Positions 14,424 to 50,330 of a stretch of 53,294 nt of DNA are shown here, piece after piece (position 1 is the first letter of the stretch; every line of letters starts with the position of its first letter). This stretch comes from Hymenobacter sp. GTDB taxonomy: Bacteria; Bacteroidota; Bacteroidia; Cytophagales; Hymenobacteraceae. The notes under the pieces are model-generated. The model searched no databases and was not told where the DNA came from. It was given only the letters and a program-made list of their open reading frames with translations. The position numbers and the translations under genes are program-made. The stretch is taken from the NCBI GenBank assembly GCA_025356245.1, contig JANXUO010000023.1, forward strand, positions 1 to 53,294. The letters are read 5' to 3'.

Positions 14424-16124
14424 CTACTGCCGGCCAGCAGGCCGGGGCACGGGGTAGTAGAGCGGCGGTACCACGCCCTGGTTGCCCTGGTAGCCGCCCT
14501 GGCCCTGGCCCGACATGAGCAGGGATTGGAAGGGGTTGCCTTCCTGGCCCATAATCCCGGCCGGAGCCATCACACCCGCCTGACGCAGCCCACCGGCCCC
14601 ACCCTGCCCGGCCTGGGACTTGGAGAGCAACAACGGGTAGCCATCGGGCAGGGCCACCGTACGCAGCTTCTGGCCCGACTTGGGAATGCGGCCAATCATA
14701 GTGACGGCCATGCGACCGGCAATGCCGGTGAGCGAGTTGGCCGCCTGCTGGCTTTGGGCAATGGCGTTGCTCAGCTCCTGGGTGCCGGACTGCTGCATCG
14801 AGCCCGTAAACGACTCGCCCCCCTGCACCGGAGCCCGCTTGCCGGGGTCAATCATGATGCCGGGCATATAAGCGTAGTTGAAAGTCTGCACCTTGACCCG
14901 GTGCGGGCCGAGCCGGTCAATACTCAGGTTGACGCGGTTGGCATCCACGCTGGCCAGGGCCGAAAAGAGCATATTGCGCGGGAAGGTGATGCCGTTGAAG
15001 GTCGCATCCTCCGCCAGGCGCAGCACAACCACGGTACCGGTTTTAACAACCTGGTTGCCTTGGACCGAACAGCGGTAAAAGATGTCGGGAATCGGCGCTT
15101 CTTCCTCTTCCTGCGGACCCTGGCCCGGACCACGGTAGCGGATGGTGTTGAAGCCGTCCATACCGGGGACGTAGGCCATTTCGGCCCGGCGGTTCTGGGC
15201 CGCGTTGCCCGCCTGCTGGCCGGCGCTGGCCGGCAGGGGCCGGTAACGGCGGCCGCTCATCTTCTCGTAGGTGGCCTGCACTTCCGGGGGCAGGCCGGCA
15301 ATCATGAGGTTGATTTCGTCGTTCGTTTCAAACGGTACGCCGTCCGTATCATACTTGGGCTGCGGGGGCTCCCGGCGTTCCGGCCGCTGCTCGTCGCTGT
15401 TCTGGTTGGCGGGCGTGACGCCGGAAAAGCCGCCGTTGGTCGGGCCCGTGTAATAGTTGGGCTGGGCCGGCCGGTTGCCAATGTAGCGGGAACGCCGGGC
15501 AGGACCCGTGCCCACGGCCACCTTCTGAACGGGCTCGCGCCGTTGCACGAACTGGCCGGTGCGCGGGTCGCGCCCGGTGACGGTCACCGAATCGGTGTTG
15601 TTGGCGCGGGCTGCCAGCTCCATCTGGGCGCGGTAGTCCGCGCGTTGCTGGGCCGTGGGCGGCGTTTCACCCGTGGGGGCCGTGGCGCTGCCATCGGCCA
15701 GCATTGCGCCTTCGGGCGGGGCTTCCTCTTTCCGGTCGCGGTCGAGGCTTTGCTCAACGCCTTCCACGGGGTCGGGAGCCGCTTCGGGCTTGGGGGCCAC
15801 GGTGAGGGTGCCGAGCTCGGCGGCCACGGCCGAGGGTGGTGCCTGTGAGGCCATTTCGCTGGTCAGGCTCAGGTACCACCAGCCCATACCGGCCAGAAAA
15901 AGCACCCCCAGCACCCCCAGTACCTTAAACTTATTGGCTACCAGCATCTGGCCCCAGTCAACTCTGGGCTTGGGGGTGTCGGCTTCATCTTCCGCGCCGC
16001 CGGGCGGGTCAGGGAAACCGACAGGCGGCTCAGCAGAGGCCGTGGGGGAGGGCAGGGGGCCCGCAGGGGCCGGGCCGCCGGCGGAAAGCGACGGCGGGGG
16101 AGTCGAAGGGTCTTGTGTGCTCAT
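14424..16124 (-). CDS. traM: Conjugative transposon TraM (VirB10-like)
   Basis: Single TM, Pro-rich linker, C-terminal VQGNQVVKTGTVVVLRLAEDATFNGITFPRN..RVNLSID..VALPDGYPLLL. Confidence 0.85.
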   Translation of the reverse strand: MSTQDPSTPPPSLSAGGPAPAGPLPSPTASAEPPVGFPDPPGGAEDEADTPKPRVDWGQMLVANKFKVLGVLGVLFLAGMGWWYLSLTSEMASQAPPSAVAAELGTLTVAPKPEAAPDPVEGVEQSLDRDRKEEAPPEGAMLADGSATAPTGETPPTAQQRADYRAQMELAARANNTDSVTVTGRDPRTGQFVQRREPVQKVAVGTGPARRSRYIGNRPAQPNYYTGPTNGGFSGVTPANQNSDEQRPERREPPQPKYDTDGVPFETNDEINLMIAGLPPEVQATYEKMSGRRYRPLPASAGQQAGNAAQNRRAEMAYVPGMDGFNTIRYRGPGQGPQEEEEAPIPDIFYRCSVQGNQVVKTGTVVVLRLAEDATFNGITFPRNMLFSALASVDANRVNLSIDRLGPHRVKVQTFNYAYMPGIMIDPGKRAPVQGGESFTGSMQQSGTQELSNAIAQSQQAANSLTGIAGRMAVTMIGRIPKSGQKLRTVALPDGYPLLLSKSQAGQGGAGGLRQAGVMAPAGIMGQEGNPFQSLLMSGQGQGGYQGNQGVVPPLYYPVPRPAGRQ

Positions 16125-37179: not shown

Positions 37180-37773
37180 ATGCTACGTCTTTGTTCCTTT
37201 TCCTTGCTGGCCGCCCTGGGCGGGGCGTTGACCACGGGTTGTTCTTCCCCCCAGGAATCGGCCCCGCCCGGCGTTGCCGACGCACCGGTGGCTACCGGGC
37301 GGGACCCGGGTGCCCGCGCTGACTCACTCGGCGGCATTCCCGACCACAAATTTGGCCAGCCGATAAGCGCCTTTCCCGGACTGGTGCTGGCCGCCAACCA
37401 AACACCGGGCACTCGGACTTATCACTACCCGGACGGCAAGGGGGAGCCCGGTTGGTTTGGCAAGCGCAAGCAGGAGATGCCCAACGAGTTTTATTCTTTT
37501 TACACCTTCAGCGGAGGACAATTCGTGGCCTTCCAGGCCCTTGCCTACGGGGATGGCCGCCGGGCCTTGCGTGAGCAGGCACTGTATCTTTTCGGGCCAG
37601 GTAAGCAGTGGCCCACCGGCGTGAACTGGGAGGGGAAGCAGGTGCTGGCCTATTACACCACGCCGCAGTTGCCTTCCGGGCCCGGCGCGGAACTCGATGT
37701 GCAGAGCCAGGAATTTGTGCGGGCCCGGGACAAAGCGCAGCAAGATAAGCTTATGCAGGAGAACGCCCAGTAG
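37180..37773 (+). CDS. Hypothetical lipoprotein
   Basis: Hydrophobic leader with lipobox LTTG-C. Confidence 0.75.
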   Translation: MLRLCSFSLLAALGGALTTGCSSPQESAPPGVADAPVATGRDPGARADSLGGIPDHKFGQPISAFPGLVLAANQTPGTRTYHYPDGKGEPGWFGKRKQEMPNEFYSFYTFSGGQFVAFQALAYGDGRRALREQALYLFGPGKQWPTGVNWEGKQVLAYYTTPQLPSGPGAELDVQSQEFVRARDKAQQDKLMQENAQ

Positions 37774-38051
37774 CCGACAGGCGGCGGCACAACAAACGAC
37801 AGGAGCATCGGGAATATAGCAGAAAAAGAAGAGAGAAAATGGCCGTTTCGGCGTGTTTCGTGCATTCATTAAAATACGGCCGACGACGAAGTACTGCCCG
37901 TTATTTTCGACGCGTCGGAGCGGGGCTGCCAGGTGCCGTTTTTTCAGGCACGACAAGGAAAAGTTAAGGCACTTCCTTGTCCGTCACCCAGACCACCGCA
38001 ATGACGAACGCTGCCCGTGCCCTGGCCCAGTTCTTCCACCGGCAGCGGTTG

Positions 38052-39569
38052 TTAGCTGGCCCGCGCGGTTAAACGAGGCCCCTTTCGCAGGGTTTCCAGC
38101 GTCAGCTGCCACAGATGTTCGTAAGGCACGACTTCCATCTCAGCAAATGCTTCTCCTGGAACGGGGGCCCCGGTTAATTCTTTTACCAGGGAAGCACTGC
38201 GCTCAACGCAAGTACGGGGGTTGAAATCTTCCTCGTGAAGCAGAGCCAATAATTTAAGGAATAAGCGGCTGCGCAGTGTTTCTACTCCTTGCAGGTGCAA
38301 CTGCCGGTACTTGCGCAGGCGTTCCAGCCGAAGGGCTACCTCATCGAGATTGCGGCGGTGCAAGAAATATAGCAGTTGAATTATGAGCACGGCGACGTGG
38401 TAACCCCGCTTGTCGCGGTTGAAATCCGGCAGTGCCAGCGCCCACTGGGCGACGGGCTGGCGAAGCAGCCGGGTGGGGGGCAGCACGAGCACGTCGAGGT
38501 AGGCGCGGTACAACTCCCAACGCTGGCGGTCGGAAACCCGCTGCCCGGCGTAGGCCCCGTTCCGGGTCACTTCCTCGTACACCTGCCGGGCTTGGTCGAG
38601 GGCACCGGTGTGCAGGGCCAAAAGCAAGTGGTTTTCCTGGTAGGAAAACCAGCCATTGGAGGAAGGGTGAAAATCCAGCAGGTGCTGCCGGGCCAGCGCC
38701 AGGCCCTCGCCCGCCCGGCGGGCCCCCAGGTAGCCGTGCGCCATCATGAAATGGTTGTAGCGTTGGTCGAAGCGCCGGGCGTTCAGCCCGCCGCTGGCGG
38801 CCAGGCAGGCGGCTTCCGTGGTCAAACGGATGATTTCCTCGAAATTTCCGCGCACCTGCTGTACGTACAGCTTCGCCCGGTACAGGAAGAAGAACGTGCC
38901 GAAGCTGCCGCCGGCCTGCTGGTGGAGGGCTTCCAGGCGCTCGACGTACTCCGGTAGCTGCGGCAGCAAGCGCCGCTGCGCCGCGATGGCTCCCCCGGCG
39001 GCCATGCGAAACTCGGCGTACAAGTCCTCGGCCTCGCTTTCGGCCTGGTGGCGCTGCCGCCACCAGGCAAGCTCCTGCACCACGCGGCGGTACTTGGCAT
39101 CCTTGCGCTGCAACACGTAGAGGTGGCGCAGGTGACGGGCGGCCAGCAGCCCGTAGTACGTGAAATCGTCCTGCCGCGCCTGCCGCAGGCCCCGCGTTAG
39201 TAAGTACTCGGCCAGCGCGAACGCTCCTTCTTCGATTAAGATAGTGGCCTGGTGCATCGAACTGAGAATGGCCAATTCAGCCCGCCGGCCCACTAGGTGG
39301 CGGGCATCGGAAAAGTCAAGAAAATAAAGGTGGTTGAGCAGCTTGACCTGGAGCCGGCTCCGCAATTGGTAGTAGGCTTCGACTGTGGCCGGCGTATTGC
39401 TGCCGTAAATGCGTTGCACCAGGGTGCTTTGCGTGGCATCGGGAAGTTCGACCAACGCCTGCATCAACTGGTTCTCTTTCGTATTACCGGCATCTTCCGG
39501 TTTGAGCAATGGCAGTCGGGTTAGCCCTCTTGATGTCACAATTCGAGCTAATTGAACCAGATTGTTCAT
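38052..39569 (-). CDS. Putative transcriptional regulator: N-terminal winged-HTH-like region plus TPR-like helical repeats
   Basis: KENQLMQAL..TLVQRIYG..AYYQLRSRLQVKL resembles an OmpR/PhoB-type wHTH. The remaining ~400 aa are all-alpha with TPR-like units such as EGAFALAEYLLTRGLRQA and HTGALDQARQVYEEV. No signal peptide or TM. The ORF is secure; the function is inferred. Confidence 0.7.
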   Translation of the reverse strand: MNNLVQLARIVTSRGLTRLPLLKPEDAGNTKENQLMQALVELPDATQSTLVQRIYGSNTPATVEAYYQLRSRLQVKLLNHLYFLDFSDARHLVGRRAELAILSSMHQATILIEEGAFALAEYLLTRGLRQARQDDFTYYGLLAARHLRHLYVLQRKDAKYRRVVQELAWWRQRHQAESEAEDLYAEFRMAAGGAIAAQRRLLPQLPEYVERLEALHQQAGGSFGTFFFLYRAKLYVQQVRGNFEEIIRLTTEAACLAASGGLNARRFDQRYNHFMMAHGYLGARRAGEGLALARQHLLDFHPSSNGWFSYQENHLLLALHTGALDQARQVYEEVTRNGAYAGQRVSDRQRWELYRAYLDVLVLPPTRLLRQPVAQWALALPDFNRDKRGYHVAVLIIQLLYFLHRRNLDEVALRLERLRKYRQLHLQGVETLRSRLFLKLLALLHEEDFNPRTCVERSASLVKELTGAPVPGEAFAEMEVVPYEHLWQLTLETLRKGPRLTARAS

Positions 39570-39630
39570 GTTTTATTGCTTATTTACAAACATTTAGCTT
39601 TCGGCAGCTTGATGAGGGCGCTGATTTTTG

Positions 39631-39730
39631 ATGTCAGGAAGCCACCGGTTTTTTCCTATTGAGTTGGCTGTCCTTCCTCTACCTTTGATATTGGAATATT
39701 GTGCGTTTTTACAAGCGTTTATGTCAGGAA
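39631..39730 (+). promoter_or_regulatory. Two ATGTCAGGAA boxes in the divergent intergenic region
   Basis: Exact copies at 39631-39640 and 39721-39730, with a TACCTTTG (TAnnTTTG) box between them at 39680-39687. Confidence 0.6.
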
Positions 39731-39939
39731 TCGGCATTTTCTAAAGCCCAACGCCCGGCAATAGTAAGCATTTTCAGGCAATTGGAGCATAAATTATTTT
39801 GTTGATGTAGAAAAGGTTAAGTTTATTATTTTAAAAATACTGGTGAGTTTTAGCGGCTGCCTTTCCTTTTTACGCCGGCTTGACTGGGGGAATTTTGCAG
39901 TGTCAATAACAGACACTCAAACCCTTAACCCCCTAAGCC

Positions 39940-40104
39940 ATGTTGAGCCTGCTTGCCCTCGCCCTCCTCCAGTTGGCTACCCTGACGGGTAGCCCCACCA
40001 CCGGCCAACCCACCCCGCCGGCAACCACTATCCCCACCCCCCCCACCACCCCACCCCCCGCCCCCCAGGCCCCCATCGGGGACGACAAGTGGACCGGTCA
40101 GTAA
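39940..40104 (+). CDS. 54-aa secreted propeptide (not in the ORF track)
   Basis: Hand translation: MLSLLALALLQLATLTGSPTTGQPTPPATTIPTPPTTPPPAPQAPIGDDKWTGQ*. Hydrophobic leader, Pro/Thr linker, distinct C-terminal motif, own terminator. Confidence 0.8.
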   Translation: MLSLLALALLQLATLTGSPTTGQPTPPATTIPTPPTTPPPAPQAPIGDDKWTGQ

Positions 40105-40128
40105 AGCATTCCCAGCCCCCCCGTTGCG

Positions 40129-40170
40129 AAAAGCAAGGTAAGTGACCCCGGTCGCCTACCTTGCTTTTTT
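40129..40170 (+). terminator. Terminator hairpin between the peptide gene and the oppA-like gene
   Basis: AAAAGCAAGGTA ... TACCTTGCTTTTTT. Confidence 0.75.
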
Positions 40171-40193
40171 ATTGGGCCTTACCCACGCTTTAT

Positions 40194-41993
40194 ATGCCGT
40201 CCCGAAATCTGGCTCTTCGCCTCACGCCACGCGTTGCAACGTGGGCGCTGCTGGCCGTTGCCTGCTCCTGCTCCACACCGCCCGCGCCCCCGGTCGCGGG
40301 CGCGGTCCGCATCCGCTGGGCGCAGGACCCGGAGAACCTCGACCCCATGGTGCTGCCCAACCCCCAGGCCATTGAGGCGGCGAACCTGCTGCATGGCAGC
40401 CTGCTGCAACTTGATTACGCGCAGCAGCTTTTTCAGCCCGCCCTGGCCACGGGGCTGCCGGCCCGGCAGGCGCTGGGCGACTCGCTCGCCGTGCTTACCT
40501 ACGAGCTGCGCCCGGAAGCCCGCTGGGACGATGGCAAGCCGGTCACTGCCCGCGACGTTGCGTTCAGCCTCAAGCTGATGGCCTGTCCGCCCGGCCTGGG
40601 CCTCCCCAACGAGGACGCCCGGCTGGCGTACCGCTTTGTCCGCGAGGTGCGGCAGGAAGCCGCGTTCCCGCGCCGCGTGGTGCTGGTGTGCGCCGGGCAG
40701 GCCCCCACCCACCTGCAGGCCACCGGCACCTTCCCCATTTTGCCCGAACACCGCCTCGACGCGGCGGGGCGGCTGCGGCGGTTTTCGCTGGCCGCGCTGC
40801 AAAACTGGCCGGCGACGCATCTGCCGGACACCGGCCTGACGGCTTTCGCGCAACAGTACCACGCGTTTCGGGCCCGCCAGCGGGGCAACAACCTGCCGGG
40901 GTGCGGCCCCTACGCGCTCGCCGGCTGGACCAAGGACGCGCGGCTGACCTTCCGCCGGAAGCCCGCCTGGTGGGCCGACCGCCTGCCAGCTTCTGTCCCG
41001 GCCGTGCTGCGGGCCCCCTGCCCCTTGCTGACGTTCGAGATTGTCCCGGACGAGGCCACGGCAGGACTAGCCTTGCAACGGGGCGAGCTGGACCTCTTCC
41101 CGCAGGTACCGGCCCGCCTCTTCGCCCGGCTGCGCCAATCCGCCGCCGCCCGGCAGGAGCTGGCCTTCCACGCCGCCCCGTCGTTCGAGGTGGTGACGGT
41201 GGCCTTCAACACGCAACGGCCCGGCCTGGCCGACGCGCCCACCCGCCGGGCCCTGGGCCTGCTGCTGGATGCCGGCGGGCTGCTGCAAGCCACCCAGCTA
41301 GGGGAGGGGCAGCGCACGGCCGGCCTGATTGGCCCGGCCGACCCCCGGGCAGGCTGCTGCGACAGCTTGCCGCCGCTCGCCTTCGACCCGCCCCAAGCGG
41401 CGCTGCTGCTGGGGCAGGCCGGCTGGCAACGGCACCCGGACGGGTGGCACCGGCGGGCGGGTACTGCTGCCCCGGCTACCGCTTTGCGGCTGCGCCTGCG
41501 CTACCGCACCGGCGATGCCATGCAGGAAACCATCGCCCTGCAGTTCCGGGCCGCCGCCGCCCGCATCGGCGTGCCGGTGGCCCTGCTGCCCACCGAGGCA
41601 GGGGCGCTGGGCGCGGCCCTGCGGGCGGGCGACTTCGACCTCTGCGTCCGCACCGTCAAGGGCAACCCCTTCTCCTGCAACTTCATGCCCCTGCTGCACT
41701 CGCGGGCGGTGGGGGAGGGCAACGTGAGCCGCTTCGGCACGGCGGCCAGCGACGAACTGCTCGAGCAACTGGCCGCCGCCGCCACCCCCGCGCAGCAGGC
41801 GCGGCTGCTGCGCCGCTTCCAGATAATGGTGCGGGAGCAGGCCCCGCTGGTGCCCCTGTTCGTGGTGCCGACCCGCCTGGCGGCCAGCCGGCGGCTGGCC
41901 GGGCTGCGCGCCTACGGCCTGAAGCCCGGCTACGCCATCACTGCGCTGCACCGGGCCGCGGCCCCCGAACCGGCGGCCGCGCCCGCCCCGTAG
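40194..41993 (+). CDS. Oligopeptide/dipeptide ABC transporter substrate-binding lipoprotein (SBP family 5, OppA/DppA-like)
   Basis: Lipobox AVACS-C, DPENLDP, YELRPEARWDDGKPVTARDVAFS, GCGPY. Confidence 0.9.
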   Translation: MPSRNLALRLTPRVATWALLAVACSCSTPPAPPVAGAVRIRWAQDPENLDPMVLPNPQAIEAANLLHGSLLQLDYAQQLFQPALATGLPARQALGDSLAVLTYELRPEARWDDGKPVTARDVAFSLKLMACPPGLGLPNEDARLAYRFVREVRQEAAFPRRVVLVCAGQAPTHLQATGTFPILPEHRLDAAGRLRRFSLAALQNWPATHLPDTGLTAFAQQYHAFRARQRGNNLPGCGPYALAGWTKDARLTFRRKPAWWADRLPASVPAVLRAPCPLLTFEIVPDEATAGLALQRGELDLFPQVPARLFARLRQSAAARQELAFHAAPSFEVVTVAFNTQRPGLADAPTRRALGLLLDAGGLLQATQLGEGQRTAGLIGPADPRAGCCDSLPPLAFDPPQAALLLGQAGWQRHPDGWHRRAGTAAPATALRLRLRYRTGDAMQETIALQFRAAAARIGVPVALLPTEAGALGAALRAGDFDLCVRTVKGNPFSCNFMPLLHSRAVGEGNVSRFGTAASDELLEQLAAAATPAQQARLLRRFQIMVREQAPLVPLFVVPTRLAASRRLAGLRAYGLKPGYAITALHRAAAPEPAAAPAP

Positions 41994-41995
41994 TC

Positions 41996-43066
41996 ATGGG
42001 CCTGCACTTCCTCGGCCGCCGGCTACTCAACACCCTGGTGGCCCTCTGGGGGCTGGGGTCGCTCGTGTTCCTGCTGGGCCGCCACGACCCGGCCGGAGGG
42101 CCAGAGCAACAGCTTTTGTCCGATGGTACCGAATCGGGCATCGGCACTGAAAGCCGCGACCCGGCCGCAATGGCCGCCGCCCGGCAGGCGGTGCGCCACC
42201 GCCTGGGGCTCGACCAGCCCCTGTTCTATTTGAGCCAACAAGCGCCGGCCGCCGCCAACGGCGCACGGTGGCGGTGGAACGGCACCGCCAACCAGTACCA
42301 CCACTGGCTGGCCCGCCTGCTGCGCGGCGAGCTGGGGCATTCGCTGCGCACGGGCCAGCCGGTGGCCGGCCAGTTGGGGGCCGCGCTGTGCTGTACGCTG
42401 CCGCTCACCGGCACGGCGCTGGCCCTGGCGCTGGGCGCGGCCCTGTGGCTGGGGCAAGGGCTGGCCGGGCCGCGCCGCTGGTGGCAGGGGCCGGTGCGTG
42501 CGCTGCTGCTGGCCCTGCAAAGTGCCCCCCTCTTCGTGCTGGCCCTGGGGCTGTTGCTGCTGCTGGCCAACCCGCAGGCGCTGAACTGGTTTCCGGGGTA
42601 TGGCCTGGCGGACGAGGAGTTGGCCGGCTGGAACCGGCTCGGCGAATTGGCTCGGCACCTCGCGCTGCCGGTCGTCAGCCTCGTGCTGGCGGCCCTGCCC
42701 GACCTGGCCTTGCAACTGGAGGCCGCGTTGCGCCACGAGCTGGGCACCGACTACGCCGCCGCCGCCCGGGCCAAGGGACTGGGCGAGGCGCAACTCATCC
42801 GGCACCACGCCCTGCCCAATGCCCTGCTGCCCACCCTGACGCAGGTCACGGGCCTGGTGCCGGCGCTGCTGGCCGGCGCGTTGGTCGTGGAGGTGGTGTA
42901 CGCCCTGCCGGGCATGGGGCGGCTGTTAGCCGCCGCCGCCGCCCTGCGCGACTACCCGGTCGTGCTGGGCGGGGTGCTGCTGACGGGCGCGGCCCGCCTG
43001 GGGGCGCTGCTGCTGGCCGACGTGCTTTACCACCGGGCCGACCCCCGCATCCGATGGACCAGGTAG
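41996..43066 (+). CDS. ABC permease, OppB/DppB-like
   Basis: RHRLGLDQPL, QYHHWLARLLRGELGHS, DYAAAARAKGL, HHALPNALLP, ADPRIR. Confidence 0.9.
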   Translation: MGLHFLGRRLLNTLVALWGLGSLVFLLGRHDPAGGPEQQLLSDGTESGIGTESRDPAAMAAARQAVRHRLGLDQPLFYLSQQAPAAANGARWRWNGTANQYHHWLARLLRGELGHSLRTGQPVAGQLGAALCCTLPLTGTALALALGAALWLGQGLAGPRRWWQGPVRALLLALQSAPLFVLALGLLLLLANPQALNWFPGYGLADEELAGWNRLGELARHLALPVVSLVLAALPDLALQLEAALRHELGTDYAAAARAKGLGEAQLIRHHALPNALLPTLTQVTGLVPALLAGALVVEVVYALPGMGRLLAAAAALRDYPVVLGGVLLTGAARLGALLLADVLYHRADPRIRWTR

Positions 43067-44010
43067 CGCACCGGCGGCGGCAATACGCGGCGCTGGCCTG
43101 GCTGCTGCTGGTGGCGGGGGCGGGCCTGGCCGCGCCCTATCTGCCGCTGCCCTTCGCGCCCGCCGAACCGGACTTGCTGGCCGTCGGCGTTTCGCCCGCG
43201 CAAGGGGCCGGGGCCGGCCACTGGCTCGGCACCGACCCGCTGGGGCGCGACGTGCTGGCGGGCCTGCTCTTCGGTGCCCGGACGCTGGTGCTGGTGACCG
43301 TGCCGGCCGCCCTGCTGGCGGCGCTGCTCGGGGCCGTGCTCGGCAGCCTGGCCGGCTACGGGCGGCGGCTGGCGGCCCCGGCCCCCGCCTGGCTGCTGGG
43401 GGCGGGCCTGGGCTGGTGGGGGCTGGCCTTGCCCCGCCCGGCGCTGGGGCTGGCGGCGGCGGCCGGGGCCGGGGCGTGGGCGCTGGGCCAGTGGCTGCGG
43501 CATCGGTCGGGGCCGGTCTGGGCGCTTTCTCTGGATGCGCTCATCCAGGGCGCGGGGGCCCTGGTGGGCACCGTGCCGCGGCTGGTGCTGGTGGCGGCGG
43601 TGGCCACCGGCGGGCCACTCTCGCTGACCGGGCTGGGGCTGCTGCTGGTCCTGACCAACTGGCCCGGCCCCGCGCGGCTGGTGCGGGCCGAAACCCTGCG
43701 GGTGCGGGCGCTGCCCTTCGTCGAAGCGGCGCGGGCCCTGGGCCTGCCGGCGGCCTGCATCTTGAGGCGGCACGTACTGCCGCTGGCGCTGCGCCCGCTC
43801 CGCGCCGACCTGCCCCTGCGCCTGGCGGCCTTCGTGGGGCTGGAAAGCACGCTCTCGTTCCTGGGCCTGGGCCTGCCGCCCGACACGGCCAGTTGGGGCC
43901 GCCTGCTCGACGCGGCCCGGCTCGACCCGGCCGCCTGGTGGACCGCCGCCCCGCCGATGCTCGCGCTGCTGCTCACCACGGGCGCGCTGCTCATACTCTC
44001 GAAGAAGTGA
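43054..44010 (+). CDS. ABC permease, OppC/DppC-like
   Basis: HWLGTDPLGRDV, FVEAARALG, ESTLSFLGLG, SWG. Confidence 0.9.
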   Translation: MDQVAHRRRQYAALAWLLLVAGAGLAAPYLPLPFAPAEPDLLAVGVSPAQGAGAGHWLGTDPLGRDVLAGLLFGARTLVLVTVPAALLAALLGAVLGSLAGYGRRLAAPAPAWLLGAGLGWWGLALPRPALGLAAAAGAGAWALGQWLRHRSGPVWALSLDALIQGAGALVGTVPRLVLVAAVATGGPLSLTGLGLLLVLTNWPGPARLVRAETLRVRALPFVEAARALGLPAACILRRHVLPLALRPLRADLPLRLAAFVGLESTLSFLGLGLPPDTASWGRLLDAARLDPAAWWTAAPPMLALLLTTGALLILSKK

Positions 44011-44063
44011 CTGGGCAGCGGCCCGCTGGACACAAATTCTTCATCCGGCGTGGGGGCAGGCAA

Positions 44064-44228
44064 ATGTCAGGAATGCCTTATTTTTTGGAAAAAGTGCTTT
44101 GGGCTAAAACAGGTCCGAACAACTTCGTTTGCACATTTTTGAGCGACCTGACCGGTGTCGGGGGAGCCTCGACAACCGATGAGAACTGGTTTTTGGGGCC
44201 ATCAGGCGTACGTTCGAGATGTCAGGAA
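44064..44228 (+). promoter_or_regulatory. Second pair of ATGTCAGGAA boxes upstream of the T9SS cargo genes
   Basis: Exact copies at 44064-44073 and 44219-44228. Confidence 0.55.
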
Positions 44229-44945
44229 AATGGGCAAGTTATCCTTTGATTGGGGCGACGGCCCCCGTAACCTTGTGTCGCCGTTGGGCAACCGGCATAC
44301 TTGCCTGGTCGCGGGCTGCCGCACCTGCCTGCAACCCGCCACCTCACCCGCTTTGCTGACCTGATGTTCAACCCCCAGAATGCCCTACACGGGCCTGTTT
44401 GATGCGAATTCGCTTGCGTCAAACGAACCGGGAATATGCTATCTTTATACCAGCACTTACCTGCTCCGCTCTTCAAATCAGCTCTCGCACCATACCTCAA
44501 CTACGACACCGTTACGCATCACTGCGGCCAGCAGTTCTCAGCACCCTTTTTTTCACTCCCTCATGCTGATTCCGCTACTCTTTCTGAGCCAGCCGCTGTG
44601 CTGGGTCATTCGGCCTGAGCGGCCATCCTTCACTTCTTCCCCTACGACGAAATGAAAGACACCGCCCCGCGCCGCTGGCCGCTCCTGAGGCAGCCCCGGC
44701 ACTACTTCCGCAACCGCAGCACCGAACACTCCGGGCCGGCGGACAAACGGGCACCCCTGCGCGAACAGGGGGCCGTTTGTTCCGCCTTATAAATGGGCCG
44801 GCCCACCGGGAAGGTGCGCCCACCCTTTGCTTCGGATTGCCGGTTCCGGGGCCTCCAACGCGGAGGTACGGGGCAAGGACTCACCGCTTGTGACACGGCA
44901 ATTCGAAAGTTACGAGTCCTGCAAACTTTTAGCTTCGCTAAATCG

Positions 44946-46973
44946 ATGAAATCTTTAAAAACCATGACCAACGCGCTGCTTTTAGCGGCGGGGTTGGCAA
45001 GCGGTGTGGGCCTGACAGCCCGTGCCCAAACCATCACCCTTAACGGCACTACCGCCGCCGCAACTGCGGCGCAGGTGGGCGGCGGCGGGCTGCAATATGC
45101 TTGTACAGCGTACGCGCCAGCCAGCCCACAAAACCAGCAAACCTTCGTTTTCACGCCCGGCGCGAACAACGAGGTGATTGACAAGTGGACGCTGCAAGGC
45201 GACGGCGTGGCCACAACCGGCACCACCGGCACCACGTTCAGCTTTTCCCCCATCGGCTTCGGCAAGGCGCGGGTGACGGTGAACTACTACTACAATACGG
45301 GTGCCACCACGCCCGTGTTCTGTTCCGGCGGCACAGTACCCATCACCTGCCCCGGTGGTGGGCAACTCACCACACCCGTGCGGGCCTACGCCACGCGTTC
45401 GTACGACTTTTTCAAGGTCTTCACGAAGGCACAAGCTGGCTTCGATGTCAAGGGGCCAACGTGTGTGCCAGTAGTCAACCCCTCGGTGGTTTACTCAGTG
45501 GAGCCGGGGGTCATCTCGACTCAGAACCAGATAGCGGCCGGAATCGACATCGACAAGTACACTTGGACTGTTACCTATACCAGCGGGTTAGCTATTGGCA
45601 CTAATGTGCCCAGAATTACCTCTGGCGATGGTAGCACAATAACCATTCCCCAAACGTCGTACACTGGCCCGAACGCCGGTTCTTTCAAGGTTGCGGTTAA
45701 GGTAGGAACGTGTAATACTGTCCAGCCTGATATTCTCGTTACCCTAGTTGGGGATTTAGGCGCTTCGGTTTCCAATTTCCCTGCCTGCATACCGATTGGT
45801 TCGACCGCCAGCACCAGTTTCACCCTTAATACTGTGGCTGGCGTGAATTACACTCTCAACACCACGATTGGCTTGTTGTCGTCCACAACCCCCGTCGTGA
45901 TTCCGGCGGCCAACAGCATCGCTATTACGGGCACAGGGAACGCCGTTACCGTCAACCTAACGGGTATCACAACAACCAACACTGGAACCGTCACTATTTC
46001 CGGTGTGGGTGGCAACGGCAACTGCTTCGGCACCCAAACCATCGTGCGGCAGGTAACGCGGCAACTGGTGGGCGGCACGAACCTCATCACCCCCGTGTGC
46101 GTCACGCCCAATTCCACGGCGGTGCTCACGCTGAGCAACGCCCCGCAGGCAACGGCCGGGCAGGCCATCAACTGGGTGGTGCCGACTGGTGCCGGCTGGG
46201 CCATCACCAGCGGGCAGGGCACCAACGCTATCACTGTCACGACGGGCGCAGCGGCGGCTACGATTACGGCCCAAGCGGGAACCTGCAACAACGGCGGCAC
46301 CGGCATCATCTCGCAGGCGGTGGGGGTCAGCGGCCCGGTGAGCGGCTGCAACCTGACCATATCCAACTCGGGCGGGGCCACACCGGGCTGCTCGTTCACG
46401 GCTTCGGTGCCGGCCGCGCCTTGCCCCCTCAACAACGCCAACCGCTACACAACGTGGCGCCTTTACGACCTGAGCCGCCCGCTGCCTGTGTCCAACCAAC
46501 TGGTGGAAACAGTTACTGTGCCCCTGAACTTTCAAAGCACGGGCTCGATTTCGTTTGCCTACCAAACCAGCATCGCGGGCACGGCCCGCGTAGAGGTGGA
46601 CGTGGTGAACACGGCCCCCGGCGGTTCTTGCCTTCGCAGTACGTTCGGCACGTCGGGCCTGGACTTTGTTTTCTGCCCACCCGGCGGGCGGGCGGCGGCC
46701 CCCGGCAGCAGCGCAGCCGCGAAACTGGCCCGGCAGGAAGTGCGGGCGTATCCTAACCCGTCGAATGGCCTGCTGACTGTTGACCTGACCCCGGCCGAAG
46801 GCACGACCCAACTTAGTTTAGTGGATGCACTGGGCCGCACCGTGCAAACGACGACGACCGACCACGCCCGCGCCGCACTAGACGTGCGCGGGTTGCCCGA
46901 GGGTACCTACACCTTGCGGGCTGTGCGCCCCGGCGGCAAGGTGCTGACCCAAACTGTGCAGGTGCAGCACTAG
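44946..46973 (+). CDS. Cys/Thr-rich secreted protein with Ig/PKD-like domains and T9SS type A C-terminal domain
   Basis: Signal peptide ending ARA-Q, WAITSGQGTNAITVT (PKD-like), C-terminal AYPNPSNG..LVDALGRTV..GLPEGTYTL. Confidence 0.88.
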   Translation: MKSLKTMTNALLLAAGLASGVGLTARAQTITLNGTTAAATAAQVGGGGLQYACTAYAPASPQNQQTFVFTPGANNEVIDKWTLQGDGVATTGTTGTTFSFSPIGFGKARVTVNYYYNTGATTPVFCSGGTVPITCPGGGQLTTPVRAYATRSYDFFKVFTKAQAGFDVKGPTCVPVVNPSVVYSVEPGVISTQNQIAAGIDIDKYTWTVTYTSGLAIGTNVPRITSGDGSTITIPQTSYTGPNAGSFKVAVKVGTCNTVQPDILVTLVGDLGASVSNFPACIPIGSTASTSFTLNTVAGVNYTLNTTIGLLSSTTPVVIPAANSIAITGTGNAVTVNLTGITTTNTGTVTISGVGGNGNCFGTQTIVRQVTRQLVGGTNLITPVCVTPNSTAVLTLSNAPQATAGQAINWVVPTGAGWAITSGQGTNAITVTTGAAAATITAQAGTCNNGGTGIISQAVGVSGPVSGCNLTISNSGGATPGCSFTASVPAAPCPLNNANRYTTWRLYDLSRPLPVSNQLVETVTVPLNFQSTGSISFAYQTSIAGTARVEVDVVNTAPGGSCLRSTFGTSGLDFVFCPPGGRAAAPGSSAAAKLARQEVRAYPNPSNGLLTVDLTPAEGTTQLSLVDALGRTVQTTTTDHARAALDVRGLPEGTYTLRAVRPGGKVLTQTVQVQH

Positions 46974-47047: not shown

Positions 47048-47135
47048 CCGGCCTTGTGCCCCCTGCGGCTGCTCCATCGGGCGGCGGCAGGGGGCTTTGG
47101 GGTTATCCATCCTTCTGCTTTTCCCTCTTCGTACC

Positions 47136-50100
47136 ATGCCGACGCTACCCTTTTGTTCCAGCCCGTTGCGTACCCCGTACCTGCTTGCCTGCTGGCTGGC
47201 CGCCAGCGGCCTGGCACTGCTGGCGCTGACGGCCACGGCCCAGCCCACGTCGCCGCCAGCACCCATTCAGGGTCTACCTTTTTGGACGTGGCAGGCCCCG
47301 CAGCCCACGGGCTACGGCTTCAACGCCCTCCACGTTTTCAACGACTCGACCGTCATCGCCGTGGGCAACCACGGCACGGCCGTGAAGACCACCGACAACG
47401 GGCGCACATGGCAAACCCTGCCCACCGGGGCCGTCGGGGAAGTGGCTTCCGTGTCGTTCGCCAACGACCGCGTGGGTTGGATTGGCACCGAAACTCGCAT
47501 GACCACAGCCCGCCATTACTACACCGGCTCGGGGCAGATGCGGCGCACCACCGACGGCGGCCAGACCTGGACGGCGCAATCCATCGGCGTGGACGTGCTG
47601 AGCGTGGTCAACCCGCAGGTGGTGGCCATCTCGCCCACCGAAGCCTACGTCACGTACCGGCTGACCGGCTACGACCCCTTGGCGGGCATACTGAGCCAGG
47701 AACCGATGATGAGGCACACCGTAAACGGGGGGCAGAGCTGGCAACTGGTGCCGCTTCCCTTCTCCTACAGCGTGAATTTCACCATGTACCCCCCGGTTTT
47801 TCCCACGCCGACCCGGGGGTTCCTAATGGTGAAATCGACACCTGGCCTGACCAGCAACCTGCTGCGGACCACGGACGGGGGCCAAACCTGGCAGGACATC
47901 CTGCCCAGCGTGGCCAGCAACTACCTGCCCTTCGCCCTCACGTTCCTCACCCCCCAACTGGGCTGGCTCCTGGGCTTGGACGTTCCCAGCAACACCAACA
48001 TTTTGTACAAAACCCTCGACGGTGGCACGACCTGGACGCGGGTGGCCCCCCTCGTGGCGGTGCCGGCATCTGCTTATTTTTTGCCCAAATTATCCTTCAG
48101 CGACCCGCTGCACGGCCTGGCGTCGGACGTTACCGCCAATGCCGGCACCGACTACTGCACCACCGACGGGGGCCTGACCTGGGCACCGGGCAGCACGGCG
48201 CTGCCCCTGTCGCTGGGCGGTTTCCGGGCGAACCGGTTGCGCGCCGGGGGCAGTGGCTGGGCCGTGAGCAGCTTCGGCGGCCTCTACCGCACCCGCGACT
48301 ACGGCAACAGTTGGCAGGCCTGCGTGCCCGCGCCCCAGGCGTACCGGTACAAGTCGCTTGATTTTCCGGAACCGACTCACGGCTGGGCCCTTCCCTTGAC
48401 CCTCGACCCAAAGGACCAGACCACCCTGATGCGGACCGCGCGCCGGAGCCAGCCCTGGCAGGCCCTGAAGCTAGACAATGCCTTGCCCGGCGTAGATTAC
48501 ACCAACACCGCGATACAGTGCGTGGCCTTCCCCGACGCCGACACCGGCTGGGTGGCGGTCAGCAGCTCGGTGCAAACCATTCCGCTGTTGCGTACTACCA
48601 ACGGGGGCCGCAGTTGGGTGCCGCAGCCCGTGGGCACCACCCCCGCTGCCGGCTCCCTAACCGACCTGGGCTGCTGGAATACCCAGCGGGCCGTGGCTGT
48701 GGGATACGGACCAGGCGCGGCGCTATTCCGCACCCGCAACGGCGGGCGCACCTGGACAACGGCGGTTAACCCCCTGCCGCGTCAAACCCCGGGCTATGTG
48801 CTGTGGGTCGATTCAGTGACGGTGTACGTCAAAACCGACTCGGCCTATTTTCTTAAAAGCCGCGATGCCGGCCGCACCTGGCAGGCGTTGCCCTTGCCGG
48901 GGATGAATCGAATGTTTAGCTTTCGCCACAAACCGTGCTTTACTTCGGCCACCGTGGGCTACTGGACTGACAGCGGGGGTGTGTGGAAGACCACCGACGG
49001 CGGCCTGACTTGGCGCTTCACCGACCTGAACCCCCTGGCTGACTTCGACCGTGGCGGCAACCGGCAAGTTAGCCTGGCAGGTATCAGCTTCCGCAACGCA
49101 CGAGTGGGTTGGGCCTTTGGCACCAACGTCTTCCAAACCCTGGATGCCGGGCAAACCTGGAGCCTGGTGGCCAACGTAGAAGGCGGCACCGGGGCTGTGG
49201 GCAGCTTTGGACAAGCCAGTTCTGGCCCTAGCGTTTTGATAGACCGCTACAACGCCTTTACCACCGGCAGCGGTATCGTGCGCTACTCCGAGAAGTTCAT
49301 CCAAGCCGACACTTCGGCCGCCCAGCCCCGGCGCTACTGCGCCGGGCAGGACATTACCCTGGCCTACACCAACGAGGGCAGCCTCACCGCCGCCGAGCGG
49401 GCCGCCCTGCGGGTGCAGCTTTCCAACAAGATGGGGCGCTTCCGCAAGGGCCAGGCCTGGCTGCTGGCCCCGGCCCCCGGCGGCACGGCCACCGCCCTGC
49501 GGGCCACGCTGCCCGCCGTGCTGTCAGCGGGCTCCCGCTACCGGCTGCGCGTCATCACGGCCGACAGCGCCCTGCTCGGCGGCGACAACGGCCGCGACCT
49601 GACCATCAGCCCGCTGGCTACGGCCAGCATCAGCCCCGTCGGGCCAACGCTGGCCGTGTGCCAAGGTGCCACAGCCACGCTCACGGCCCCGGCCGGGCTG
49701 GCGCAGTACCTGTGGAGCACCGGGGCCACCACACCCACCATCACGGTGGGCGTGGTGGGTAGCTATACGGTGCAAGTAGCCAGCACGGCGGGCTGCCTGG
49801 GAGCACCCTCGACGGCGGTGGCTGTAACCGTAGTCCCGCTCCCCCCCGCACCCGTACTGGTGCGTAACGTAGCCAGCGGGCAGTTGACCATAGCAGCGCC
49901 GCTGGCAGGAGCTACCTACCGGTGGACGTTCAACAACGGCGTACTGGCGGGCGTGACGGGGGCCCAATACCCGGCCATGGGGGCAGCCCCGGCGGGCACC
50001 TATACAGTGGTGACGGTGAGCGCGACAGGCTGCGCGTCGGTGGCTTCTGCCCCGCTGGTGGTGATTTTGGCCGTGCGGGCCGCGACGCAAACCGAGCTGC

Positions 50101-50330
50101 GGCTCTTCCCCAACCCGGCACGGGAGGTGTTTTTTGTGGAGCGGGCCGAGGGCAGTTCCCCGGCCGAGCTGACGGTGCTTGACGCGCTGGGACGCTGCCA
50201 GTGGCGGGGCACGTTGCGGGGCGGGCAACTCCGGGTGCCGGTGCAAGGGCTGGCCCCCGGCCTCTACGCGGTACGCCTGCACAACGCCGATGGCAGCGTG
50301 GTAGTGCGCCGGATGACGGTGGAGCACTGA
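47136..50330 (+). CDS. YCF48/BNR (Asp-box) beta-propeller protein with T9SS type A C-terminal domain
   Basis: Many TTDGGxTW repeats, YLWSTGATTPTITV, C-terminal LFPNPARE..LDALGR..GLAPGLYAV. Confidence 0.9.
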   Translation: MPTLPFCSSPLRTPYLLACWLAASGLALLALTATAQPTSPPAPIQGLPFWTWQAPQPTGYGFNALHVFNDSTVIAVGNHGTAVKTTDNGRTWQTLPTGAVGEVASVSFANDRVGWIGTETRMTTARHYYTGSGQMRRTTDGGQTWTAQSIGVDVLSVVNPQVVAISPTEAYVTYRLTGYDPLAGILSQEPMMRHTVNGGQSWQLVPLPFSYSVNFTMYPPVFPTPTRGFLMVKSTPGLTSNLLRTTDGGQTWQDILPSVASNYLPFALTFLTPQLGWLLGLDVPSNTNILYKTLDGGTTWTRVAPLVAVPASAYFLPKLSFSDPLHGLASDVTANAGTDYCTTDGGLTWAPGSTALPLSLGGFRANRLRAGGSGWAVSSFGGLYRTRDYGNSWQACVPAPQAYRYKSLDFPEPTHGWALPLTLDPKDQTTLMRTARRSQPWQALKLDNALPGVDYTNTAIQCVAFPDADTGWVAVSSSVQTIPLLRTTNGGRSWVPQPVGTTPAAGSLTDLGCWNTQRAVAVGYGPGAALFRTRNGGRTWTTAVNPLPRQTPGYVLWVDSVTVYVKTDSAYFLKSRDAGRTWQALPLPGMNRMFSFRHKPCFTSATVGYWTDSGGVWKTTDGGLTWRFTDLNPLADFDRGGNRQVSLAGISFRNARVGWAFGTNVFQTLDAGQTWSLVANVEGGTGAVGSFGQASSGPSVLIDRYNAFTTGSGIVRYSEKFIQADTSAAQPRRYCAGQDITLAYTNEGSLTAAERAALRVQLSNKMGRFRKGQAWLLAPAPGGTATALRATLPAVLSAGSRYRLRVITADSALLGGDNGRDLTISPLATASISPVGPTLAVCQGATATLTAPAGLAQYLWSTGATTPTITVGVVGSYTVQVASTAGCLGAPSTAVAVTVVPLPPAPVLVRNVASGQLTIAAPLAGATYRWTFNNGVLAGVTGAQYPAMGAAPAGTYTVVTVSATGCASVASAPLVVILAVRAATQTELRLFPNPAREVFFVERAEGSSPAELTVLDALGRCQWRGTLRGGQLRVPVQGLAPGLYAVRLHNADGSVVVRRMTVEH

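What the first reader, a model, noticed from the sequence alone, without database searches (positions are those of the whole stretch)
39940..40104. Overlooked 54-aa propeptide gene with three-part architecture
It is absent from the ORF track, whose shortest entries are 60 aa. Residues 1-16 are a hydrophobic leader (MLSLLALALLQLATLT), 17-45 are mostly Pro/Thr, and the last nine (IGDDKWTGQ) hold all the charged and aromatic residues. That is the pattern expected if only the C-terminus carries information. The strong hairpin at 40129-40170 suggests much more peptide mRNA than opp mRNA.
Basis: partly seen in the sequence, partly recalled or inferred. Interest (0 to 1): 0.8.

Follow-up and report, generated by a model that had tools for sequence, protein, structure and literature searches.

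The report
Peptide signalling cassette in Bacteroidota
This 54-residue gene is real and conserved across Hymenobacter and relatives, and it likely encodes an exported signal whose tryptophan-containing tail is predicted to be re-imported and to switch the regulator next door, which would be a Gram-positive-style peptide communication system in a Gram-negative phylum.

Summary
The ORF (39940-40104) and its three parts are as described. It is one gene of an undescribed cassette: a divergent 505-aa regulator (predicted HTH-like N-terminus plus TPR superhelix; best structural match NprR, tied with unrelated TPRs), the propeptide, and an extra OppABC importer. 119 of 129 Hymenobacter regulator loci carry the propeptide, with 1-19 tandem cores [IVGH]G-x-x-x-W; repeats are under strong purifying selection (pN/pS 0.04). 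Core changes track the TPR domain (partial rho 0.37-0.50), not the HTH or OppA. An operator-like box (ATGTCAGGAA here) sits four times in the cassette (chance 0.03), including before downstream T9SS cargo genes. Regulator-plus-small-ORF pairs recur in other Bacteroidota orders and classes, and in one complete temperate phage. The window copy lies on a conjugative element. Best reading: an RRNPP-like export/re-import peptide signalling system in a diderm phylum, working like RRNPP but not shown to be a member (no basic n-region, no sequence homology, non-Bacillota host). Export, processing, binding and density sensing are inferred, not shown.

The parts
38052..39569 (-). 505-aa regulator, predicted N-terminal HTH-like domain (about residues 1-90) plus TPR superhelix; putative peptide receptor
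   Evidence: ORF; no Pfam/NCBIfam family; AlphaFold pLDDT 92.5; VIA-align top NprR Z 15.7, rmsd 5.5, 278 aligned; N-terminal model matches HTH DNA-binding domains weakly, Z up to 5.8
39533..39542 (+). Operator-like box A (ATGTCACAAT) inside the regulator's coding sequence, codons 10-12
   Evidence: Synonymous positions nearly fixed: ATT 112, GTG 111, ACA 109 of 123 loci
39631..39687 (+). Box B (ATGTCAGGAA) with second box at +21 and a -7 element TACCTTTG (39680-39687): predicted regulated promoter towards the propeptide gene
   Evidence: -7 consensus from PMC6847099 passages
39721..39730 (+). Box C (ATGTCAGGAA)
   Evidence: 6-7 of 7 matches to ATGTCAC at about +152 in 112 of 123 loci against 10 of 984 background windows
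39862..39897 (+). Proximal promoter-like elements of the propeptide gene (TTTCCTTTT and GAATTTTG)
   Evidence: Sequence; consensus TgTCCTTTt...cAacTTTGTgTCA at this distance across loci; function inferred
39940..39987 (+). Propeptide residues 1-16: conserved hydrophobic leader without basic residues, Q11 nearly invariant
   Evidence: Q11 in 117 of 125, A8 and L9 in 115 of 125; no K/R in residues 1-6 in 122 of 125
39988..40074 (+). Propeptide residues 17-45: Pro/Thr spacer, free to drift
   Evidence: 8 non-synonymous and 6 synonymous changes against the second copy on C42, while leader and core have no amino-acid change
40075..40104 (+). Propeptide core IGDDKWTGQ and stop; predicted mature signal; a divergent allele of the family pattern [IVGH]G-x-x-G-W-x-x-D
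   Evidence: nearest regulators carry IGDNGWGHD and IGDSGWGHD
40128..40169 (+). Hairpin; its 3' arm holds the conserved -7-type box TACCTTGC (40157-40164), 37 nt before the oppA ATG
40194..41993 (+). OppA-like lipoprotein (SBP_bac_5), an extra copy beside the housekeeping SBP5
41993..43066 (+). OppB-like permease
   Evidence: BPD_transp_1, E 7e-25
43054..44010 (+). OppC-like permease; no ATPase gene follows
   Evidence: BPD_transp_1, E 2e-18; neighbour clustering
44064..44073 (+). Box D1 (ATGTCAGGAA)
44219..44275 (+). Box D2 (ATGTCAGGAA) with second box at +21 and -7 element TAACCTTG (44268-44275): predicted regulated output promoter
   Evidence: same architecture after oppC in 44 of 49 other loci
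44946..46973 (+). T9SS cargo protein with PKD-like domain; likely output gene (start inferred at the second ATG)
   Evidence: a paralogous pair follows the second cassette copy
47097..50330 (+). T9SS cargo protein with BNR repeats; likely second output gene (start uncertain)

Best explanation
The 54-aa ORF is a conserved, purifying-selected gene of a five-gene cassette, and it is likely the precursor of a signal peptide that is predicted to be exported, cut down to its W-containing core, re-imported by the cassette's own OppABC and bound by the TPR domain of the divergent regulator, which would then switch promoters carrying the ATGTCA box. Steps: (1) shown: gene, selection on the core, linkage to regulator and opp, conserved DNA boxes. 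(2) Inferred: the hydrophobic leader takes it across the inner membrane (Sec or another route; it lacks the usual basic n-region). (3) Inferred: periplasmic or outer proteases release one or many copies of an 8-10 residue core; Ala-rich spacers flank the repeats (A most frequent at W-8, W-7 and W+6). (4) Inferred: OppABC imports it, borrowing the genome's single fused OppD/F-type ATPase. (5) Predicted: the core binds the TPR groove; allele-specific, so different cores act as different pherotypes. (6) Inferred: the HTH-like domain binds ATGTCAxxAA boxes placed about 50 nt before -7 elements, most likely as an activator, giving feedback on peptide synthesis and control of a small local output (a 67-aa ORF at the chromosomal locus; T9SS cargo genes in this mobile copy).
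For: Co-occurrence: 119 of 129 Hymenobacter-like regulator loci have the propeptide, oppA follows in 96 of 102; three regulator-less Hymenobacter genomes give no propeptide match, and the one of them tested also lacks the extra SBP5. Selection. Receptor fold: NprR-NprX first (Z 15.7), RapH 13.6, AimR 13.5 and 13.0, PlcR 11.9 among the 50 rows; profile hit to kinesin light chain TPRs E 4e-4; N-terminal model ranks mostly HTH domains. Co-evolution on 46 full cassettes, 88-90 branches: core with TPR region partial rho 0.37-0.50 (0 of 2000 permutations), with HTH -0.04 to -0.11, with OppA 0.08-0.16, with OppB+C -0.15 to 0.01. The window has both the longest regulator branch in its clade (0.59) and the most divergent core. 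81 core types among 124 loci; one genome holds three cassettes with three cores. Boxes: ATGTCAGGAA 4 times in the window, chance 0.03; after oppC in 44 of 49 loci, 0 on the reverse strand, 1.6% of shuffles; none upstream of 7 stand-alone peptide-less regulators. Breadth: divergent hydrophobic-leader small ORF at 43 of 124 regulator loci outside the genus against 1 of 124, 3 of 113 and 0 of 113 control positions. Tandem pheromone copies and mobile-element carriage are known RRNPPA traits (PMC9765709 passages; PMC11343458 abstract).
Against: No direct evidence of translation, export, processing, binding or density dependence. The leader has no basic n-region (122 of 125), unlike the canonical RRNPP propeptide profile. 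The NprR match is tied with eukaryotic TPRs (LGN 14.8, CNOT10 14.7), and the tool warns that Z near 13-14 is common for helical repeats; Foldseek gave nothing at E below 0.001. The HTH matches are weak (Z up to 5.8; top row is an unrelated processome subunit). The leader also tracks the regulator a little (partial rho 0.17-0.28), so some of the co-evolution signal may be linkage; parsimony branches are not fully independent. No outer-membrane exporter or importer is in the conserved neighbourhood, which a diderm needs for cell-to-cell signalling. 70 of 99 regulator loci outside the family show no propeptide by my rule, and opp genes are mostly absent there. Exact-box search in five near-complete genomes shows no large regulon (30 hits, 20 in the control).
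Confidence: 0.63

Rival explanations
1. Same ligand and receptor, but a private loop: the core is released in the periplasm and re-imported by the same cell, so the system is a timer or a sensor of export, protease activity or outer-membrane leakiness rather than cell-to-cell communication.
For: No outer-membrane transporter among conserved neighbours; OppA is a lipoprotein, so capture can be periplasmic (sequence); an 8-10 residue peptide is large for general porins (own knowledge).
Against: 81 core types with receptor co-variation, several alleles per genome, and carriage on a conjugative element and a phage fit kin or element discrimination better than a private timer; up to 19 cores per precursor fits signal amplification.
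Confidence: 0.16
2. The product is not exported: the leader is a membrane anchor with the cores facing the cytoplasm, where they tether or inhibit the TPR regulator (anti-activator).
For: No basic n-region and often an acidic residue at position 3 (66 of 125 have D/E in residues 1-6); most pairs outside Hymenobacteraceae have no opp genes; co-evolution with the TPR domain fits this too.
Against: A dedicated extra OppABC travels with the pair (96 of 102) and is duplicated with it; the hydrophobic stretch is only about 13-15 residues with a central Gln.
Confidence: 0.09
3. It is a RiPP or metallophore precursor (leader plus repeated cores) modified by enzymes encoded elsewhere; OppABC takes up the product and the regulator only controls expression.
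For: Conserved leader with tandem Gly/Trp cores resembles multi-core RiPP precursors (recalled); SBP5 proteins also bind metallophores (NCBIfam nickel and staphylopine SBP hits below cut-off).
Against: No radical SAM, P450, YcaO, protease or exporter among neighbour clusters seen in 4 or more of 93 loci (11 representatives scanned); cores co-vary with the regulator's TPR region and not with OppA; distant relatives use unrelated cores without Trp.
Confidence: 0.08
4. A chance or decaying ORF in an intergenic region.
For: Low-complexity, C-rich middle; the exact protein is not in the 15-billion collection.
Against: Conservation, frame-specific selection and fixed position; 4 of 10 family members looked up are deposited as hypothetical proteins.
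Confidence: 0.01

Closest known systems
RRNPP(A) systems of Bacillota, especially NprR-NprX, PlcR-PapR, Rap-Phr
   Same: Adjacent small propeptide and HTH-TPR receptor; Opp-type import; C-terminal core; allelic pherotypes; tandem core duplication; orphan receptors; chromosomal and mobile copies (PMC10075063 introduction; PMC9765709 passages and section 5).
   Different: Gram-negative host with an outer membrane; no sequence similarity to RRNPP models; receptor 472-522 aa; leader without basic n-region; dedicated oppABC inside the cassette; repeats are the rule (87 of 113) rather than 6.7% of long propeptides, and reach 19 copies; Gly/Trp cores.
Arbitrium (AimR-AimP-AimX) and PrgX/RapI control of mobile elements
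   Same: AimR is among the structural matches (Z 13.5, 13.0); one complete 44-kb temperate phage record carries the regulator-propeptide pair next to its integrase; the window copy is on a conjugative element; a small operator-preceded output ORF follows the chromosomal cassette.
   Different: Only one phage case in three productive-pattern scans plus one plasmid orphan; no box was found before the tra genes of the window (one weak PWM score at 15082), so control of conjugation or lysogeny is not shown.
Rgg-SHP and ComR-ComS of streptococci
   Same: Divergent regulator and small peptide gene; non-canonical export is known for these; ComS-type cores rely on Trp (recalled).
   Different: Precursors here are longer (46-291 aa) with spacer and repeats; no PptAB-like exporter nearby.
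N-acyl-cyclolysine signalling of Bacteroidota (Linares-Otoya 2025)
   Same: A widespread signalling system of the same phylum (seen only as cited in PMC13419125 passages).
   Different: Small-molecule signal; here the signal is gene-encoded. The paper itself was not available, so its receptor was not compared.

Membership tests
RRNPP(A) peptide quorum-sensing systems | Propeptide of 10-100 aa | tested here: met
   54 aa; complete relatives 46-291 aa, the long ones through repeats. Criterion from PMC10075063.
RRNPP(A) peptide quorum-sensing systems | Propeptide secreted by Sec (SignalP) or PptAB | not testable with these tools
   No SignalP here. Mean hydropathy of residues 4-16 is 2.06 across 125.
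RRNPP(A) peptide quorum-sensing systems | Canonical leader profile: short basic region, then hydrophobic region | tested here: not met
   No K/R in residues 1-6 in 122 of 125; profile from PMC10075063 passage.
RRNPP(A) peptide quorum-sensing systems | Receptor of about 250-500 aa | tested here: not met
   505 aa; family 472-522, median 506. A marginal miss.
RRNPP(A) peptide quorum-sensing systems | Receptor harbours TPRs | tested here: met
   Predicted TPR superhelix, residues about 93-489, Z 15.7 to NprR with rmsd 5.5 over 278 residues; KLC TPR profile hit E 4e-4. Pfam TPR models do not hit the window protein.
RRNPP(A) peptide quorum-sensing systems | Receptor and propeptide genes are direct neighbours | tested here: met
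   Divergent, 370 nt apart; 119 of 129 loci.
RRNPP(A) peptide quorum-sensing systems | N-terminal HTH (or three-helix bundle) | tested here: inconclusive
   Model of residues 1-95 (pLDDT 72) matches EsrB, WhiA, sigma-4 and OmpR-type DNA-binding domains at Z 4.2-5.8, below a clear match.
RRNPP(A) peptide quorum-sensing systems | Mature peptide binds the receptor's TPR groove and changes its activity | not testable with these tools
   Needs experiment; indirect support from branch-wise co-variation.
RRNPP(A) peptide quorum-sensing systems | Common descent with Rap/NprR/PlcR/Rgg/PrgX/AimR | tested here: inconclusive
   No NCBIfam hit for 21 family members or the window protein; structural scores tie with eukaryotic TPRs at 8-12% identity.
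RRNPP(A) peptide quorum-sensing systems | Host in Bacillota | tested here: not met
   Named relatives are Hymenobacter; RRNPPA profiles hit only Firmicutes in 13,513 genomes (PMC9765709 section 5).
RiPP precursor with multi-core architecture | Conserved leader plus repeated cores | tested here: met
RiPP precursor with multi-core architecture | Clustered modifying enzyme, protease or exporter | tested here: not met
   Conserved neighbours within 8 kb are OppABC, a hybrid kinase, LytTR, PKD, OmpA, RmlD-like, cyclophilin, HemC. Enzymes encoded elsewhere were not tested.
Double-glycine leader peptides | Leader ending in GG/GA/GS before the core, C39 exporter | tested here: not met
   G at W-5 in only 49 of 124 core types, I/V/H in 63; the window has PIGDDKW; no exporter nearby. 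Motif definition recalled.

The most novel reading that the evidence does not exclude
A phylum-wide family of one-component peptide-pheromone systems in Gram-negative Bacteroidota, unrelated in sequence to RRNPP: polyprotein-like precursors with up to 19 cores, dozens of pherotypes, a dedicated importer in Hymenobacteraceae, carried also by conjugative elements and by a temperate phage as an arbitrium-like lysis/lysogeny switch, and in this genome controlling T9SS cargo genes and a ubiquitin-like (E1-E2/JAB) operon.
Probability: 0.5. Interest if true: 0.95.

Novelty: new variant of a known kind. Interest (0 to 1): 0.86.

Why it matters
Intracellular peptide-receptor signalling is described as a Bacillota trait, with Gram-negative bacteria using enzyme-made small molecules (PMC10075063 introduction). 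How Bacteroidota communicate has been largely open; a 2026 review names only N-acyl-cyclolysines for the phylum in the passages seen. This cassette supplies everything for a direct test in cultured, non-pathogenic Hymenobacter: predicted ligand sequences that can be synthesised, cognate and non-cognate receptors, operator boxes and reporter promoters. The regulator is in 144 of 150 Hymenobacteraceae genomes searched. It also raises the question of how a linear peptide signal crosses an outer membrane, and offers a candidate arbitrium-like system outside Bacillus phages.

Tried and rejected
Complex prediction of regulator with the peptide was not available, so no binding model exists. No RNA holder was listed for the region; the four DNA runs come from one study and give contigs only. 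Pfam, NCBIfam, PHROGs and PADLOC name neither the peptide nor the regulator; ESM Atlas gives only hypothetical Bacteroidota clusters, one with TPR_2 in 13% of members. Rfam: no match in 37700-45000. Foldseek: no match at E below 0.001 for either model. The first genome-contig scan with the single protein found nothing. Viral scans: 1 locus with one alignment, the same locus with its own protein, none with another alignment; no match in GenBank phages. A leader matrix trained on Hymenobacter was too narrow for distant loci (16 of 124 against 0-2 in controls); the looser rule was set after seeing and is controlled only by the three other positions. A strict box-plus-T-tract pattern found 1 site in 5 genomes; the plain 10-mer found 30 against 20 control, 10 of them in the cassettes, so a large regulon was not found. 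Per-column co-variation points at residues 94-112, 369 and 382-383, but ranks shift when the window is dropped, so no pocket is claimed. The sigma-70 promoter scan is not suited to Bacteroidota. The 67-aa output ORF was not found in this 82%-complete genome (best E 0.34) and has no Pfam, PDB, PADLOC or PHROGs match. Earlier-findings look-ups returned nothing. Literature searches that found no description of this system; the library lacks most subscription papers, and no supplements were read.

Full report
Observation. It lies 370 nt from the start of a divergent 505-aa gene (38052-39569) and 90 nt before oppA-, oppB- and oppC-like genes. Named relatives of the 505-aa protein are Hymenobacter hypothetical proteins. 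The genome is an 82%-complete assembly; the window is a conjugative element (coupling protein, TraG, TraM, DUF4138, VirB8, DUF5712, primase-like protein, topoisomerase).

The gene is real. I collected regulator homologues and removed duplicates, leaving 179 loci, 173 with at least 450 nt upstream. These are best hits, not a random draw. A leader matrix built from the first 26 leaders picked a divergent ORF in 125; within Hymenobacter-like loci 119 of 129. Starts lie 283-384 nt from the regulator. Trp was not used for selection, yet 124 of 125 carry it after the leader, with Gly four residues before it in 488 of 493 cases. Of 113 complete precursors, 26 have one core and 87 have 2-19. Between repeats of one gene (93 genes) pN/pS is 0.039, against 11.8 and 1.3 in shifted frames; leader pN/pS is 0.47 against 0.76 and 2.75. 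There are 81 core types. Against the second copy in this genome (contig C42, 90% nucleotide identity) leader and core are unchanged in amino acids while the spacer has 8 replacements. A is the commonest base at -3 (71 of 119) and -13 (75 of 119) of the start codon, as described for Bacteroidetes initiation (PMC6847099, passages). A peptide profile finds only the two cassette copies in this genome and nothing in three Hymenobacter genomes that lack the regulator.

The neighbour is a predicted HTH-TPR protein. No Pfam or NCBIfam family names it. AlphaFold gives an all-helical model at pLDDT 92.5. VIA-align ranks NprR-NprX first (Z 15.7, rmsd 5.5, 278 aligned), tied with LGN (14.8) and CNOT10 (14.7), then RapH 13.6, AimR 13.5, PlcR 11.9; Foldseek has no hit at E below 0.001. 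So the TPR fold is supported, kinship with RRNPP is not. The N-terminal 95 residues, folded alone (pLDDT 72), match mainly DNA-binding HTH domains (EsrB, WhiA, sigma region 4, OmpR type) at Z 4.2-5.8: consistent but weak.

Core and TPR domain change together. On the regulator tree, core types follow clades, and the window has the longest branch of its four-member clade and the most unusual core. For the 46 of 125 loci with a full regulator and OppA, B and C, I mapped changes on branches by parsimony. Core changes correlate with the TPR region after controlling for HTH, OppA and OppB+C (partial rho 0.39; 0.50 without the window; 0.37 on a tree built from Opp proteins alone; 0 of 2000 permutations each), not with the HTH (-0.04 to -0.11), OppA (0.08-0.16) or OppB+C (-0.15 to 0.01). 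The leader shows a weaker link to the regulator (0.17-0.28), so some linkage is present, and branches are not fully independent.

The importer is dedicated. oppA follows the peptide in 96 of 102 loci; the six others are rearranged or differently built copies. Three near-complete genomes have a housekeeping SBP5 plus the cassette one; a regulator-less genome has only the first. No ATPase is in the cassette; each of five genomes has a long ORF with two oligo_HPY motifs elsewhere, which I infer is shared. In public contigs of one study, depth doubles only over about 38054-44000, so regulator, peptide and oppABC are the duplicated unit.

DNA boxes mark likely targets. ATGTCAC(AA) recurs at -37 (inside the regulator's codons 10-12, whose synonymous positions are nearly fixed), +61 and +152. 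The window's variant, ATGTCAGGAA, occurs 4 times in the window (chance 0.03): twice between regulator and peptide and twice after oppC; 9 times in the genome, 8 of them in the two cassette copies. A matrix trained on the divergent region scores at least 10 in the 310 nt after oppC in 44 of 49 other loci, never on the reverse strand, and in 1.6% of shuffles. Boxes B and D2 have the layout ATGTCAxxAA, a second box T[GTA]TCCT at +21, and a -7-type element at about +50 (consensus TANNTTTG, PMC6847099 passages), which suits an activator site; that role is inferred. At the chromosomal locus the D boxes precede a conserved 65-80 aa ORF of unknown family (45 of 49 loci); here they precede two T9SS cargo genes about 670 nt on, and a paralogous pair follows the C42 copy. 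A composite matrix trained without this genome gives 7 genome hits (2 in the reversed control); the 5 with a -7 element are the four cassette promoters and one before a DUF1508, E2-E1, JAB-like operon on C189 (JAB recognised by eye). Seven stand-alone regulators without peptide show no box upstream. No broad regulon emerged.

The hairpin argument fails. Only 12 of 112 loci fold with z below -3 after the peptide, and the window's 3' arm contains TACCTTGC, a -7-type box seen before oppA in 73 of 102 loci against 4% of shuffles, mostly 30-49 nt before the first ATG.

Range. The regulator is in 144 of 150 family genomes, 67 of 301 order genomes and 28 of 401 phylum genomes. Outside Hymenobacter, a divergent 38-110 aa ORF with a hydrophobic, basic-free start is found at 43 of 124 regulator loci, against 1 of 124, 3 of 113 and 0 of 113 control positions; outside the family 29 of 99 (rule set after viewing). 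Cores differ by lineage: W-ending acidic tails, tandem IDPAGNK or IVTDPNGK, C-terminal IDRxED or IIDP. Most of these lack opp genes, and 70 of 99 regulators have no such partner by this rule. One complete 44-kb phage record with terminase and integrase carries the pair beside the integrase, with a G-x-x-x-W core.

Mechanism. Shown: gene, selection, linkage, boxes, co-variation. Predicted: fold. Inferred: export, processing, outer-membrane passage, Opp import, binding, activation. I put 0.63 on an exported and re-imported cell-to-cell signal, 0.16 on a private periplasmic loop, 0.09 on a membrane-anchored anti-activator, 0.08 on a RiPP or metallophore precursor.

Comparison and novelty. It meets three of the five RRNPP criteria of PMC10075063 (introduction part 1 and passages read), misses the length limit by 5 residues, cannot be tested for Sec export, and lacks the basic n-region and the Bacillota host (PMC9765709, section 5 and passages). 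It therefore works like RRNPP but is not filed as a member; homology or convergence is open. Tandem pheromones are known in RRNPPA (PMC11343458, abstract only) but are the rule here. A structural-phylogeny preprint on RRNPPA does not mention Bacteroidota or Gram-negative hosts (10.1101/2023.09.19.558401, term search only). Searches (listings and abstract starts) found no description of this system; the known Bacteroidota signal, N-acyl-cyclolysine, was seen only as cited in PMC13419125 (passages). Subscription papers and supplements were not seen and could hold an earlier mention. Four of ten precursors looked up are deposited as hypothetical proteins. Verdict: new variant of a known kind, interest 0.86.

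Noticed in passing
L213:5678-8751 (IMGVR_UViG_3300034140_000006): Complete 44-kb phage record (direct terminal repeats, terminase, integrase) with a 44-aa propeptide divergent from a 500-aa regulator homologue, convergent with the integrase: an arbitrium-like arrangement in a likely Bacteroidota phage.
   Followed up: partly
L111:2637-2837 (-) and 44 other loci, between oppC and the RmlD-like gene: Conserved 65-80 aa ORF preceded by the box pair; no Pfam, PDB, PADLOC or PHROGs match; ESM Atlas neighbours are phage hypothetical proteins (0.92). Candidate output of the chromosomal system; not found in this genome.
   Followed up: partly
G000:C189:1278-4400 (L313): Two ATGTCAG(G/A)AA boxes and a full promoter layout before a DUF1508, Prok-E2/ThiF (PADLOC E1-E2) and JAB-like operon, next to recombinase remnants: a ubiquitin-like, possibly defence, operon that may be under this regulator.
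   Followed up: partly
G000:C215 (L315): The genes that flank the cassette in other Hymenobacter (LytTR and PKD on one side, RmlD-like and cyclophilin on the other) are about 250 nt apart here: the ancestral site is empty, while two copies sit elsewhere.
   Followed up: partly
G000:C42 and C585; window 38054-44950: Second cassette copy, 90% identical, same core and same box variant, followed by a different pair of T9SS PKD and BNR cargo genes; both copies at similar depth in four runs of one study.
   Followed up: yes
window 4545-35287: Bacteroidota conjugation module (coupling protein, TraG, TraM, DUF4138, VirB8, DUF5712, Fic, topoisomerase) and a 2604-aa primase-like protein with pentapeptide repeats.
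   Followed up: partly
L063, L095, L127; L053, L055-L057, L300, L302: Double-regulator cassettes: one regulator faces the peptide and a second faces the opp genes; in a sister genus two regulators stand in tandem.
   Followed up: no
L066 (G129:C66): A peptide-less regulator homologue is divergent from a long ORF that begins like a polyketide synthase (recognised by eye, not scanned).
   Followed up: no
L225, L229, L219-L222, L236-L238, L253-L261, L281-L286: Distant lineages use unrelated cores (tandem IDPAGNK or IVTDPNGK, terminal IDRxED, IIDP, acidic tails ending in W or F) behind the same kind of basic-free leader.
   Followed up: partly
window 39533-39542: An operator-like box lies inside the regulator's own coding sequence and fixes synonymous codons in a GC-rich genus.
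   Followed up: partly
L132, L135, L145: Records titled Janthinobacterium or Rhodanobacter carry Hymenobacter-type cassettes nested in the Hymenobacter tree; likely mislabelled or mixed bins.
   Followed up: no
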